This document shows positions 20,457 through 23,400 of a stretch of DNA of 64,000 nucleotides, piece by piece (positions within the stretch are counted from its first letter, which is position 1; each line of letters starts with the position of its first letter). The DNA lies in the NCBI GenBank assembly GCA_000165345.1, contig CM000429.1:736001-800000 (forward strand), in the 5' to 3' direction. Made by a program: the position numbers.

Positions 20457-23400
20457 TTTAGTAGTAAATCTTCAGGTATTCCAAAATATTTATTAAATAG
20501 ATTAATTGACCAGGGTATTAGAATTGAACTTAAGAATCTTCCAATTGGAGATATAATATGGGTAGCAAGACCAAAACTTGAAGATAATGATGAAATTACA
20601 TCAATTGATGATTCTTTTGTATTACCATGGATTATTGAAAGAAAAACTGGAAGTGATATGTGTTCAAGTATTTTAGATGGAAGATACGAAGAACAAAAAT
20701 ATAGATTAATGAGATCAATTGGTGTTGAAAATGTAATTTACTTACTTGAAGATTTAAATTCAATTCATGAAAATATAATTTGGTCAAGTAGTAGTAATGG
20801 ACCAATTAGTAGTGGTAAAATTGCTCCAAAACAAGTTTTGAGAAGTGCTCAAGCTAATACTCAATTTATTGCAGGCTTTCATATTCTACAAAGTCAATCA
20901 ATTGGACATACTTTGACTCTTCTTATTGGAATGCATCAAATGATTACCAGAAATGTAAGTAATAGATGGCGTAATACAGAAATTAAACAAGATGAATTCT
21001 TTGATAAATCTTATATTATAACAAAAATTGCACAAGATAGACCATCTTTTAAAGATTGGGAAATTAATAGTAAAAAATCTTCAAATCTTACAGTTGAAGA
21101 AACTTTTGGAAAACAACTTAGAAGTATTAAAGGATGTGGTCCAGAAGCTACTGAGACTCTTTTAGAAATTTGGCCAACTCCATATAAAATGTACGAGGAA
21201 ATGTCAAGTGAAATAACATTTGATGACTTGTATTCAAAAGTTTTAAAAAAATGTGAAGAAATTAGAAATATGAAATTTGGACCTAAAAAGAAGAAACATA
21301 AACCAAGTGTATCCAGAGACCTTTTATTTCATCTTTACTGTTTATTTTCAGAAAATATCCAAAATGGTGATTTAAATAATAAACATAAATTTGAAATTGA
21401 AACTGAAGACAAGAGAGATAATCAAAGTAATGATAATGATTCCTGTTAATCTTTTTTATGTTTATTTTTTCTTTCTTTAGTTATACATGGTAGATTTATT
21501 ATTGATAACCATAATATTATCGAAATGATCAATATACTTGTTAATATACTGAATAATATAGCCAAGTACTTAATTTCCATATATTCTTTCCTAGACTTTT
21601 TAAAAATAGTAATTCAATTCTTTGCAACTTTTCTTTTTAAATGTTACCCCTCTTTACTTTTTTTTAATGATATTCCCCTTTTATTGTGTGTGCCTTACGT
21701 GTCAATATTGTATATCCAAGAACAAATCGCAAATTGCCTTTCCCGCCAACATGTTTACCTTGAAATATTGTGCAATTTTATAAAGAAAAAAAAAAAGTAT
21801 TTAGTGGTTATTTTCATAGTGAGAAAAAATGGATAAATAATTTAACCAACTAATCAAAAATATTAACAAATTAATTTTCATGATTGTGTTATTCAGTAAT
21901 AATGTGTTTCGTGGTGGGGGGAAGAAGAAAACAATAATAATCAAAAGATGACGTGTGGGCGGTAAAAACATGCAATTTAGAATAAATATATTTTGTGTAA
22001 ATATAATTATTAATAATAAATCATTAAAGAGAAAATAGATTAGAGATATCATCATCTGATTGAATTTCTAAGTTATTGGATACCTTTACATCAGTCATAT
22101 CACATTCATTAAATTGAAGAATTGTAGGAAGTTTTTGTCGTTGATAATTATAAATTGAAATAAGTTCTCTAGTAACATTATGATCAAGCTTATCATGGCG
22201 ATGTCTAATATACCAGAATCCAATTTGTGGAATTTTTCCTGAAAAATTTCTAAGTTCATGAACAATTTTAGTATTGTAAAAATTCTCCAGATTTTGAACA
22301 AATAGTTGGAATTCATGTACTTGATGTGAATTATTAATTTCATCTCTAAATATATGAGCTCCTGGGAGACTAAATATAGTATGAAAAATCCTATAAAGAT
22401 GTGTTCGAATAATTCCAACATTTGGAGGTGGATAAAGAATACAATAATCCAAATATTCGAGTGCTATTTGAAATTGTGAAGGTTTATTATTAATGGCTTC
22501 TGGAGTTTTAAAACCTTGAAATAGCCATGGATTCTCTAAAATTCCTTCAGCACTCATTACTGCATCAGCTCCTGTATAATTCAAACATTTTTGAATATCC
22601 TCATAATTGGAAATACCACCATTAGCAATAAATGGAATTGAACATCTTGATTTTAAAATTTTTAAAGCCTCCCAATTAGCTGGTCCTGTCAACACTCCTC
22701 TAGAAGTCATTGTTCTTCCATGTACAGCAATCATACAGGCACCAGCAGACTCCAACCTTTTGATTAAATTTATTGTTGGTTGTAAATCATGATGATCAAG
22801 TATTCTAATTTTACATGATACTGGGCATTTTAAATCACTTTCTGATAATGTTGAAATGATTCTTTCCATCAAGTCTGGATTTGATAATAGAAATGCACCA
22901 TAATTTCCCCTCTTTGCAATATTTTGTGGGCATCCAAAATTTATATCAATTCCTTTAACTTTATCATCAATAAATTTTGAAGCTTTTACTAGAGTTTCTG
23001 GATCATTTCCACAAAATTGAACTATCATTGGGTCATCCTCTTCACATGTTTGAAAATTTGTCTCTCTATAACCTTGTAGTTTTGAAAATAATCCAGAATG
23101 GTACATTGGTGAATATCCTAAATCACATCCATACTTTTTGCAAATAAGGCGAAAAGCTAATTCACTGCCATCTACCATTGGAGCTAAAACTGTTTTTGGA
23201 GACTTTAATACATTTTTCCAATTTTCCCAAGGGGATAACTTGGTCATTTTCCTTTAAAGCTCTACTACTAAGCTAAGCTTAAAGTAATAAGTAGTTTTAA
23301 TTTAATATATTAGAAACCTTAAACTATTTAATAATTGAAACTCTGAGAAGTTTAAATACTCAAATTGTATAATGATTTTCCATTTCCATTTGTTTACTCG

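What the first reader, a model, noticed from the sequence alone, without database searches (positions are those of the whole stretch)
21450..22023. Promoter-like boxes in a 3'-3' convergent spacer (Mus81 / Dus): candidate antisense or small unannotated transcript
Between the Mus81 stop (21449, plus strand) and the Dus stop (22024, minus strand) the spacer contains TTTCCCGCCAACATG (21737), GTGGTGGGGGGAAG (21913) and AGATGACGTGTGGGCGGTAAAAACATGCAA (21943..21972). These are the same box types that elsewhere sit 100-400 bp upstream of ATGs, yet here no gene starts on either strand. A hydrophobic 103-codon ORF (21525..21836) precedes them. The boxes could instead drive an antisense lncRNA over Dus or Mus81, a class of transcript that RNA-seq commonly detects in compact apicomplexan genomes. 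The same oddity recurs at 36936..37020, between the TSP1 gene and the ApiAP2 3' ends (CCACATGCAAATGCAAATTTATGCAAGTGGAGG...TGTGCATGCAATACCG...TATGTGGAAAC), and at 3425..3434 (GCGCGGGAAA) between cyclin H and the PCGF-like gene.
Basis: partly seen in the sequence, partly recalled or inferred. Interest (0 to 1): 0.5.

Follow-up and report, generated by a model that had tools for sequence, protein, structure and literature searches.

The report
Hidden 44-codon membrane-protein gene with promoter
The "empty" gap between the Mus81 and Dus genes of Cryptosporidium parvum holds an unannotated 44-amino-acid membrane protein gene, conserved across the genus, and the promoter-like boxes lie upstream of it where a normal promoter would be.

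Summary
The window is C. parvum chromosome 1. The boxes exist, 0-4 nt from the stated coordinates, and the flanking genes are Mus81 and Dus. The premise that no gene starts here is wrong.

On the minus strand, 21446-21580 encodes a 44-aa protein (MEIKYLAILFSILTSILIISIILWLSIINLPCITKERKNKHKKD). The ORF is intact at the syntenic position in eight Cryptosporidium genomes: parvum, a parvum-like Logan sample, meleagridis, canis, felis, bovis, ryanae and serpentis.
- Substitutions follow codon position 3 > 1 > 2, and no species has an in-frame stop.
- Synonymous sites are saturated (pS 0.64-0.90); pN is 0.2-0.5.
- DNA identity equals that of the flanking genes.

The product is a single-pass membrane microprotein with a basic C-tail. 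It has no detectable homologue, and no NCBI/UniRef record holds it.

The boxes lie 159-398 nt upstream of its ATG. The AP2/E2F/TGACGT cluster (21946-21978) is better conserved than coding DNA. So this is most likely an ordinary E2F/ApiAP2 promoter in a tandem Dus -> microgene spacer.

The 103-codon plus-strand ORF is not conserved. No catalogued lncRNA maps here, but antisense or bidirectional use of the cluster is not excluded. The two other sites (36.9 kb and 3.4 kb) are not explained this way.

The parts
21446..21580 (-). Unannotated 44-codon ORF (ATG 21580-21578, TAA 21448-21446) encoding MEIKYLAILFSILTSILIISIILWLSIINLPCITKERKNKHKKD, a single-pass membrane microprotein.
   Evidence: ORF listed. 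Syntenic intact orthologues of 42-59 aa in 7 other genomes. Coding signature. DNA identity equal to flanking CDS. The only conserved coding segment in 16-28 kb that lies outside the genes called in the orthologous loci. Hydropathy and charge.
21446..21449 (.). TTAA shared by the two convergent stop codons (Mus81 TAA 21447-21449 on +; microgene TAA 21448-21446 on -). The two mRNAs must therefore overlap at their 3' ends.
   Evidence: The same 4-nt overlap occurs in C. meleagridis, C. canis and the Logan sample. The genes are separated by 104-179 nt in felis, bovis, ryanae and serpentis.
21581..22023 (-). 443-bp tandem intergenic region between the Dus stop and the microgene ATG. Inferred to hold the promoter and 5' UTR of the microgene.
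   Evidence: Mostly poorly conserved (identity to C. canis about 0.3) except for the box cluster.
21739..21747 (.). E2F/DP1-type site TTTCCCGCC (GGCGGGAAA in the sense of the microgene), 159-167 nt upstream of the ATG.
   Evidence: Conserved in C. meleagridis (-142) and the Logan sample (-167) but not C. canis. The string TTCCCGCCAAC appears in the published E2F motif table. This is the only E2F core found in any of the 7 apparent convergent spacers of the window.
21911..21924 (.). G-run box GTGGTGGGGGGAAG (CCCCCC in the sense of the microgene), about 335 nt upstream of the ATG.
   Evidence: A C-run at the equivalent place in meleagridis and canis; identity 0.57 and 0.71.
21946..21978 (.). Composite conserved cluster: TGACGT 21949-21954, E2F-like GGGCGGTAA 21957-21965, ApiAP2-type CATGCAATT 21969-21977. 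It lies 366-398 nt upstream of the microgene ATG and 46-78 nt beyond the Dus stop.
   Evidence: Identity 0.91 (meleagridis) and 0.88 (canis), higher than coding DNA. Recognisable in C. felis. The same three elements occur in the same order in C. serpentis at -214 to -160. The composite occurs 2 times against 0.01 expected.
19245..21449 (+). Mus81-type nuclease gene (ERCC4 + HHH domains), convergent with the microgene.
22024..23247 (-). tRNA-dihydrouridine synthase Dus1p gene, upstream of the microgene and on the same strand.
   Evidence: exact match to C. parvum Dus1p.
21525..21836 (+). Not a gene: an AT-rich chance ORF whose first third mirrors the real minus-strand ORF.

Best explanation
The Mus81-Dus gap is not a 3'-3' spacer. 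Its Mus81-proximal 135 bp (21446-21580, minus strand) is a genus-conserved, unannotated gene for a 44-aa single-pass membrane microprotein, on the same strand as Dus.

The protein has a short N-terminus, a 19-23-residue hydrophobic helix ending in the conserved W-x4-N-x-P-C motif, and a strongly basic C-tail. By the positive-inside rule the N-terminus would face the lumen or exterior and the tail the cytosol.

The flagged boxes lie 159-398 nt upstream of its ATG, in what is really a 443-bp tandem 5' region: E2F-type TTTCCCGCC, a G-run, and the composite TGACGT/E2F-like/ApiAP2 cluster. They most likely act as its RNA polymerase II promoter, bound by E2F/DP1 and ApiAP2 factors.

The microgene's stop codon shares a TTAA with the Mus81 stop. 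Its mRNA must therefore end inside the Mus81 coding region in antisense, and the Mus81 mRNA must run over the microgene.

Shown: the ORF, its conservation and coding signature, the motif identity, the enrichment and the footprint. Inferred: transcription start, promoter function, topology and cellular role. The role is probably a small accessory subunit of a membrane complex in the ER or secretory pathway.
For: Organism and synteny. The window is C. parvum, from an exact Dus1p match. Orthologous loci were fetched for meleagridis, canis, felis, bovis, serpentis, ryanae and a Logan sample.

The ORF. An ATG-to-stop ORF of 42-45 aa (59 aa in ryanae) lies at the same place and strand in all eight genomes. 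A7, I22, W24, P31 and C32 are invariant.

Coding signature.
- Pairwise differences by codon position are 501/265/694.
- The sense frame has 0 stops in 8 species, against 2-44 in the other five frames. It also has the lowest pN/pS, 0.49.
- pS is 0.64-0.90 and pN 0.2-0.5 between distant species.
- Blastp-short E-values between spacer translations are 1e-10 to 1.5e-24.
- DNA identity to meleagridis/canis is 0.90/0.64, the same as Dus (0.91/0.64) and Mus81 (0.89/0.64).

Protein features. The best 19-aa Kyte-Doolittle window scores 2.15-2.88. The N-flank net charge is -1 to +1 and the C-tail +3 to +8.

Promoter.
- The motifs match the published C. parvum E2F/DP1 (TTSSCGCCWAA) and ApiAP2 (ANTTGCATGYA) motifs.
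- They are enriched 4- to 30-fold over shuffles.
- An E2F core occurs in 8 of 9 divergent spacers but in only 1 of 7 apparent convergent ones, this one.
- The cluster is a phylogenetic footprint, identity 0.91/0.88 amid about 0.3.
- C. serpentis carries GCATGCA - TTCCCGC - TGACGT in the same order 160-214 nt upstream of its ORF.
Against: No transcript or translation evidence could be obtained, so the transcription start is unknown.

The best-conserved cluster sits 366-398 nt from the ATG in C. parvum. Its distance to the ATG varies from 145 to 395 nt among species. In the intestinal species its distance from the Dus stop is more constant, about 30-100 nt. That pattern would also fit an element tied to the Dus 3' end or to an antisense start.

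The proximal E2F site is not conserved in C. canis. C. bovis has only a TGCATGCA and no strict E2F core.

The protein has no homologue outside the genus and no known domain, so its function is pure inference.
Confidence: 0.62

Rival explanations
1. The conserved box cluster next to the Dus stop is the promoter, or one arm of a bidirectional promoter, of a plus-strand antisense lncRNA running over Dus. It is compatible with the microgene also being real.
For: [quoted passage not shown] They carry E2F and ApiAP2 motifs within 100 bp upstream, and many appear to use bidirectional promoters. In four intestinal species the cluster keeps a roughly constant 30-100 nt distance from the Dus stop. TGCATG motifs occur in 5 of 7 apparent convergent spacers of the window, so AP2-type boxes in 3' regions are common.
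Against: Five plus-strand 14-mers spread over Dus (22100-23100) are absent from the held lncRNA FASTA, which holds 324 of the 396 sequences. So are further 14-mers from the spacer and from Mus81. In C. serpentis the equivalent elements lie about 200-260 nt from the Dus stop and closer to the microgene. The microgene already supplies a downstream target for the boxes.
Confidence: 0.2
2. The cluster is a 3'-end element of Dus (polyadenylation, termination or insulator) rather than a promoter. The microgene would then be expressed from the proximal E2F site alone, or as a downstream ORF on a long Dus transcript.
For: The cluster lies 46-78 nt after the Dus stop, and its offset from that stop is conserved in intestinal species. 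Its distance to the microgene ATG is long and variable.
Against: Its sequence is made of the three known promoter-type motifs, which are otherwise concentrated in 5' regions of this window. The short true convergent spacers of 26, 130 and 204 bp contain no E2F core. In C. serpentis the elements have moved away from the Dus stop.
Confidence: 0.1
3. The plus-strand 103-codon ORF (21525-21836) is the gene, or the region encodes a structured small RNA.
For: The ORF is open in C. parvum. Its mirror frame across the micro-ORF is nearly open in other species, with 2 stops in 8 species.
Against: The ORF is split and frame-shifted in C. meleagridis (62-aa and 70-aa fragments). Nothing beyond the part overlapping the micro-ORF is conserved in canis, felis, bovis or serpentis. 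The substitution pattern fits the minus frame. There is no Rfam family, even at E<=10, and no tRNA.
Confidence: 0.02
4. The boxes are chance matches without function.
For: They are short motifs. The G-run and the proximal E2F site are only moderately conserved.
Against: Counts are 13 against 0.40 expected and 2 against 0.01 expected. The cluster is more conserved than coding sequence, out to C. canis, and is recognisable in C. felis.
Confidence: 0.04

Closest known systems
Conserved smORF-encoded single-pass membrane microproteins (for example OST4, 36-37 aa, a subunit of the oligosaccharyltransferase; also yeast Pmp1 and the sarcolipin/phospholamban class, recalled from general knowledge)
   Same: Size (42-45 aa), one hydrophobic helix, a short N-terminus, and a polar or basic juxtamembrane C-tail containing a proline. 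These genes are missed by standard annotation because of their length. C. parvum has annotated STT3 and OST3/6 but no annotated OST4, although an OST4 was predicted from database searches.
   Different: No sequence relationship could be shown. The hhalign probability against human+yeast OST4 is 1.6%. An 8-species-type profile finds no OST4 chain in the PDB at E<=10. In a tblastn of OST4 against the window, the ORF ranks about 17th with E=1.8. The OST4 hallmarks (acidic N-terminus, YH motif) are absent. The conserved W-x4-N-x-P-C motif and the long Lys/Arg tail are specific to this protein.
Cryptosporidium E2F/DP1 and ApiAP2_1 promoter motifs (Oberstaller et al. 2013 as cited in, and Li et al. 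2021 = PMC7840661)
   Same: TTCCCGCCAAC, TTACCGCC-type and AATTGCATGT strings match the published motifs TTSSCGCCWAA and ANTTGCATGYA. In this window they are enriched in 5' regions.
   Different: The best-conserved cluster lies unusually far from the start codon (366-398 nt) and only 46 nt from the upstream gene's stop. It also contains a conserved TGACGT element that is not among the motifs listed.
C. parvum antisense lncRNAs with bidirectional promoters (Li et al. 2021, PMC7840661)
   Same: Promoter-type boxes at the 3' end of a protein-coding gene. The CpBGF annotation labels new Iso-Seq transcript models with a CDS under 90 aa as lncRNA, so this locus could carry such a label.
   Different: The transcript unit implied here carries an ORF under purifying selection. 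No catalogued lncRNA sequence matched.

Membership tests
Protein-coding gene (conserved small ORF / microprotein) | Intact ORF with start and stop at the syntenic position across divergent species | tested here: met
   8 of 8 Cryptosporidium genomes, 42-45 aa (59 aa in ryanae through loss of the stop).
Protein-coding gene (conserved small ORF / microprotein) | Purifying selection and codon-position periodicity of substitutions, specific to one frame | tested here: met
   Differences by codon position 501/265/694. The sense frame has 0 stops and the lowest pN/pS (0.49) of the six frames. pS 0.64-0.90 against pN 0.2-0.5.
Protein-coding gene (conserved small ORF / microprotein) | Evidence of transcription and translation | not testable with these tools
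   No RNA-seq, Ribo-seq or MS data are accessible. The Logan contigs that carry the ORF are multi-gene genomic contigs.
Cryptosporidium E2F/DP1 + ApiAP2 promoter | Sequence match to the published motifs, with enrichment over chance | tested here: met
Cryptosporidium E2F/DP1 + ApiAP2 promoter | Phylogenetic footprint upstream of the gene | tested here: met
   Cluster identity 0.91/0.88 against about 0.3 for the surrounding sequence. The elements are present in the same order in C. serpentis. The proximal E2F site is conserved only in close relatives.
Cryptosporidium E2F/DP1 + ApiAP2 promoter | Position within about 100 bp of a mapped transcription start; factor binding | not testable with these tools
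   No TSS or ChIP data are available.
OST4 (oligosaccharyltransferase 4-kDa subunit) | Roughly 36-45 aa, one TM helix, N-terminus lumenal, C-terminus cytosolic | tested here: inconclusive
   Size and hydropathy fit, and the charge distribution predicts N-out/C-in. The topology is inferred only.
OST4 (oligosaccharyltransferase 4-kDa subunit) | Detectable sequence or profile similarity to OST4 (Pfam Ost4, PDB OST4 chains) | tested here: not met
   No Pfam hit. Profile against the PDB finds no OST4 at E<=10. hhalign probability 1.6%. tblastn and shuffle z-scores are not distinctive. Caveat: human against yeast OST4 itself gives only E=0.067.
OST4 (oligosaccharyltransferase 4-kDa subunit) | Physical association with STT3 and OST3/6 | not testable with these tools
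   Needs co-immunoprecipitation or a structure.
Catalogued C. parvum lncRNA (Li et al. 2021) | Sequence present in the published lncRNA set | tested here: not met
   Twenty-four 14-mers were tested against 324 of the 396 sequences. The only match was a chance hit to a lncRNA from elsewhere.
Known structured RNA (Rfam) or tRNA | Covariance-model or ARAGORN hit | tested here: not met

The most novel reading that the evidence does not exclude
The 44-aa protein is a previously unrecognised, genus-wide accessory subunit of an essential membrane machine. The most concrete candidate is the missing OST4-equivalent of the Cryptosporidium oligosaccharyltransferase, too diverged for sequence detection.

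Its TTAA stop-to-stop overlap with Mus81 in the parvum/hominis/meleagridis/canis lineage would create an obligatory sense-antisense coupling between the two mRNAs. The conserved cluster would act bidirectionally, also starting antisense transcription over Dus.
Probability: 0.12. Interest if true: 0.6.

Novelty: new member of a known kind. Interest (0 to 1): 0.42.

Why it matters
C. parvum is a major diarrhoeal pathogen with a small, heavily curated genome. A gene conserved from intestinal to gastric species, yet absent from every deposited protein set examined, is a concrete annotation gap.

The result also gives a practical rule. In this compact genome, an unusually long "convergent" spacer carrying an E2F-type box is a flag for a missed gene. 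The true 3'-3' spacers here are 26-278 bp and lack a strict E2F core (SSCGCC).

Current pipelines label new Iso-Seq transcript models with a CDS under 90 aa as lncRNA. Conserved microproteins like this one may therefore be hidden among the annotated "lncRNAs".

Functionally, the protein is a candidate small subunit or regulator of a membrane complex and could be tagged or deleted directly.

Tried and rejected
- Rfam (gathering threshold on the whole window; E<=10 on 21300-22200) and ARAGORN found nothing credible.
- The microproteins have no Pfam domain.
- An HMM profile against PDB sequences returned only chance GPCR helices.
- The word-indexed search of 5.8 billion proteins and the exhaustive phmmer search of 1.84 billion representatives returned only a nameless Logan ORF call of the same gene.
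- The JGI metagenome scan with conserved peptide patterns found no relative.
- The OST4 hypothesis was not supported.
- In the lncRNA catalogue look-ups, one apparent hit proved to be a chance 14-mer in an unrelated lncRNA.
- The small-RNA paper (PMC9465071) has no supplementary files held as text.
- A chimeric TSP3 + PCGF-like query returned only TSP3 orthologues, so no orthologous loci were obtained for the 3.4-kb site.
- The Logan contigs carrying the ORF are genomic, not transcripts, and give no transcript boundaries.
- Kelleher & Gilmore 2006, which might identify the predicted C. parvum OST4 locus, is not held.
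Full report
**Identity of the window and check of the observation**

The Dus ORF product (22024-23247, minus strand) is identical to C. parvum Dus1p, so the window is C. parvum chromosome 1. Pfam confirms ERCC4 + HHH_8 for the ORF at 19245-21449(+), a Mus81-type nuclease, and Dus for 22024-23247(-).

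- TTTCCCGCCAACATG at 21739-21753
- GTGGTGGGGGGAAG at 21911-21924
- AGATGACGTGTGGGCGGTAAAAACATGCAA at 21946-21975
- GCGCGGGAAA at 3424-3433
- three strings at 36940-37022

The box types are real signals in this genome:
- TTSSCGCC occurs 13 times against 0.40 expected from dinucleotide shuffles.
- TTGCATG occurs 36 times against 9.3 expected.
- The composite TGCATG-N(2-12)-CCGCC occurs twice against 0.01 expected, once at this site.
- The motifs match the published C. parvum E2F/DP1 (TTSSCGCCWAA) and ApiAP2 (ANTTGCATGYA) motifs.

**What is actually in the gap**

Orthologous loci were fetched through the Dus protein for C. meleagridis, C. canis, C. felis, C. bovis, C. serpentis, C. ryanae and a parvum-like Logan sample. 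Aligning the gap showed two conserved islands.

The first island is a 44-codon ORF on the minus strand, 21446-21580. It encodes MEIKYLAILFSILTSILIISIILWLSIINLPCITKERKNKHKKD. My first ORF listing used a 50-aa cut-off and missed it.

An ATG-to-stop ORF of 42-45 aa lies at the same position and on the same strand in all other genomes. In C. ryanae it is 59 aa, through loss of the stop. A7, I22, W24, P31 and C32 are invariant, and a W-x4-N-x-P-C motif is followed by a Lys/Arg-rich tail.

**Coding test**

- Over the 41 gap-free codons, pairwise differences by codon position are 501/265/694.
- The sense frame has no stop in any of the eight species. The other five frames have 2-44.
- The sense frame has the lowest pN/pS of the six frames, 0.49 uncorrected.
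- Between distant species the synonymous sites are saturated (pS 0.64-0.90) while pN is 0.2-0.5. Examples: bovis-ryanae 0.87 against 0.21, parvum-canis 0.80 against 0.24.
- A blind blastp-short comparison of all stop-to-stop segments of the spacers recovers this peptide: 1.5e-24 (canis), 7.8e-16 (serpentis), 3.3e-12 (felis) and 1.1e-10 (bovis).
- The same pipeline run over 16-28 kb finds it as the only conserved coding segment that lies outside the genes called in the orthologous loci.
- DNA identity of the ORF to meleagridis/canis is 0.90/0.64. That is indistinguishable from the Dus 3' end (0.91/0.64) and the Mus81 3' end (0.89/0.64). The rest of the gap falls to about 0.3 against C. canis.

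I regard the gene as established at about 0.9 probability, short of expression data.

ORF 21525-21836(+) overlaps the real ORF in antisense for its first 56 nt. In C. meleagridis it is broken into frame-shifted 62-aa and 70-aa pieces. More distant species share nothing beyond the mirrored part. It is a chance ORF in AT-rich DNA.

**The protein**

The best 19-residue Kyte-Doolittle window scores 2.15-2.88 in all species. The N-flank has net charge -1 to +1 and the tail after the P-C motif +3 to +8. By the positive-inside rule (established knowledge) this predicts a single-pass protein with a lumenal or exoplasmic N-terminus and a cytosolic tail. The invariant juxtamembrane Cys is a plausible palmitoylation site; that is inference.

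No homologue was found:
- There is no Pfam domain.
- There is no PDB relative.
- The 5.8-billion-protein index and the exhaustive 1.84-billion representative search returned only one cluster, nameless ORF calls from Logan assemblies of the same gene.
- The JGI metagenome scan returned nothing.
- The exact C. parvum sequence exists in the collection only from Logan, with no NCBI or UniRef record. By contrast, Dus1p from four annotated C. parvum assemblies is present. None of the seven orthologues is in the collection at all.

So the gene is unannotated in every deposited protein set examined here.

**OST4 test**

OST4 is the classic 36-37-aa subunit with this topology. C. parvum has annotated STT3, OST3/6 and four other OST subunits, but no OST4. 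An OST4 was predicted from database searches in 2006-2007.

Human and yeast OST4 sequences were verified against the PDB. The comparisons gave no support:
- Profile-profile comparison gives probability 1.6%.
- In a tblastn of OST4 against the window, the ORF ranks about 17th at E=1.8.
- Shuffle z-scores are -0.25 to 3.7.

Membership is therefore not supported. Power is low, because human against yeast OST4 itself scores only E=0.067.

**The boxes in the corrected gene map**

With the microgene in place, the map reads Dus(-) stop at 22024, a 443-bp tandem spacer, the microgene ATG at 21580, and the microgene stop sharing TTAA (21446-21449) with the Mus81 stop. The boxes then lie upstream of a start codon like everywhere else:
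- E2F-type GGCGGGAAA at -167 to -159
- the C-run at about -340
- the composite cluster at -398 to -366

The other exact TTSSCGCC sites in the window lie mostly in 5' regions. Examples are 88 nt upstream of the ATG at 2098, 118 nt upstream of the ATG at 61516, and 222 nt upstream of the Dus ATG.

Using long ORFs as gene proxies, an E2F core occurs in 8 of 9 divergent spacers but in only 1 of 7 apparent convergent spacers, namely this one.

The cluster 21946-21978 holds TGACGT 21949-21954, GGGCGGTAA 21957-21965 and CATGCAATT 21969-21977. It is a clear phylogenetic footprint:
- Its identity is 0.91/0.88 to meleagridis/canis, above coding DNA.
- It is recognisable in C. felis.
- C. serpentis carries GCATGCA, TTCCCGC and TGACGT in the same order, 160-214 nt upstream of its ORF.

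The most economical reading is an E2F/ApiAP2 promoter for the microgene. This step is inferred, not shown.

**Caveats and rivals**

In the intestinal species the cluster keeps a more constant distance from the Dus stop (about 30-100 nt) than from the microgene ATG (145-395 nt). Li et al. report that C. parvum lncRNAs are mostly antisense and most often occur at the 3' end of the sense gene. They are preceded by these same motifs, and many appear to use bidirectional promoters. An antisense-Dus start, or bidirectional use of the cluster, therefore remains possible.

Against this, 24 14-mers from all three sites were tested, covering both antisense directions. None maps a lncRNA to these sites in the held FASTA, which has 324 of 396 sequences, unwrapped. 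The one match proved to be a chance hit to an unrelated transcript.

That pipeline removed transcripts called coding and putative read-throughs. The CpBGF annotation labels new Iso-Seq models with a CDS under 90 aa as lncRNA. The microgene transcript could therefore be missing or mislabelled in current resources.

A role for the cluster as a Dus 3'-end element is a weaker rival.

**Consequence of the TTAA overlap**

In parvum, the Logan sample, meleagridis and canis the two convergent CDSs share their stop codons. Both 3' UTRs must therefore run antisense into the other gene. In felis, bovis, ryanae and serpentis the genes are 104-179 nt apart. Whether the overlap is regulatory is unknown.

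**The two other sites**

At 3.4 kb, the cyclin H gene has an intron (GTAAGT at about 2781, AG at about 2833) and a second exon ending at 3173. The spacer is therefore 278 bp. It holds three TGCATG sites and a canonical E2F-type TTTCCCGCGC at 3433-3424, within 20 nt of the PCGF-like stop. No plausible ORF is present, and no orthologous loci could be obtained.

At 36.9 kb, the TSP3-ApiAP2 spacer is long in all five species examined, 679-1042 bp. The box cluster is conserved in the chipmunk genotype, and an ACATGCAATA core is conserved in C. bovis. There is no conserved small ORF and no Rfam family above threshold.

These two sites are not explained by hidden coding genes. They remain candidates for ncRNA or antisense promoters. 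TGCATG-type boxes occur in 5 of 7 apparent convergent spacers of the window, so that part of the 'oddity' is a general property of this genome.

**Verdict**

The main site is an ordinary promoter in front of a missed, genus-conserved microprotein gene. That makes it a new member of a known kind, an unannotated smORF gene, with moderate interest as an annotation gap in an important pathogen and as a candidate small membrane-complex subunit.

Noticed in passing
window 2781-3173: The cyclin H-like gene continues past the ORF end at 2781 through a short intron (GTAAGT donor at about 2781, AG acceptor at about 2833) into a second exon ending at the TAA at 3171-3173. The apparent 670-bp convergent spacer is really 278 bp.
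   Followed up: partly
window 3174-3451: This true 278-bp convergent spacer still holds three TGCATG sites (3281, 3305, 3321), a canonical E2F-type TTTCCCGCGC (3433-3424, minus) 20 nt from the PCGF-like stop, and a (TA)n microsatellite at about 3233-3270. It has no plausible ORF. Candidate antisense or ncRNA promoter.
   Followed up: partly
window 36623-37436; L008 5034-6075, L009 5022-5700, L010 5025-5745, L011 5046-5868: The TSP3-ApiAP2 convergent spacer is long (679-1042 bp) in all five species. The CATGCAAATGCAAAT / GTGCATGCAATACCG box cluster is conserved in the chipmunk genotype and partly in C. bovis. No conserved small ORF or Rfam family was found. Function unexplained.
   Followed up: partly
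window 12530, 25901-25925, 3281-3326, 36943-36995: TGCATG / TGCATGCA (ApiAP2-type) motifs occur in 5 of 7 apparent convergent spacers, including short ones (130 and 204 bp). E2F cores are essentially confined to 5' regions. AP2-type boxes in 3'-3' spacers therefore look like a general feature of this genome.
   Followed up: no
window 7130-7151: The only other copy of the composite TGCATG-N-CCGCC element lies in a 1.7-kb apparent tandem spacer (6937-8657), about 1.5 kb from the next long ORF. It may mark another missed gene or exon.
   Followed up: no
L006 about 5830-6023 and 6024-6203 (C. ryanae): Three tandem copies of a roughly 63-nt GC-rich unit lie immediately upstream of the C. ryanae micro-ORF. 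The ORF is extended to 59 aa by loss of the ancestral stop.
   Followed up: no
L002 5690-8946 (C. canis): The deposited C. canis gene call fuses PSF2 and Mus81 into one 920-aa product. This is probably an annotation merge.
   Followed up: no
window 37371-37446 (minus): A sub-threshold Rfam hit to mir-202 (27.2 bits against 51 gathering, E=0.001) over a polypyrimidine stretch at the ApiAP2 gene's stop. Most likely chance.
   Followed up: no
window about 20430 (Mus81 poly-Asn tract); L007, L012-L015: All Logan short-read contigs carrying the locus end at the same point, about 1.02 kb into Mus81 from its 3' end. This lies at or near the AAT-rich poly-Asn run, and is a recurrent assembly break.
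   Followed up: no
window 43442-44594 and 43654-43681: A dense cluster of eight E2F cores plus a long G/C homopolymer run lies in the 2-kb divergent region upstream of the 1500-aa ORF at 44970.
   Followed up: no
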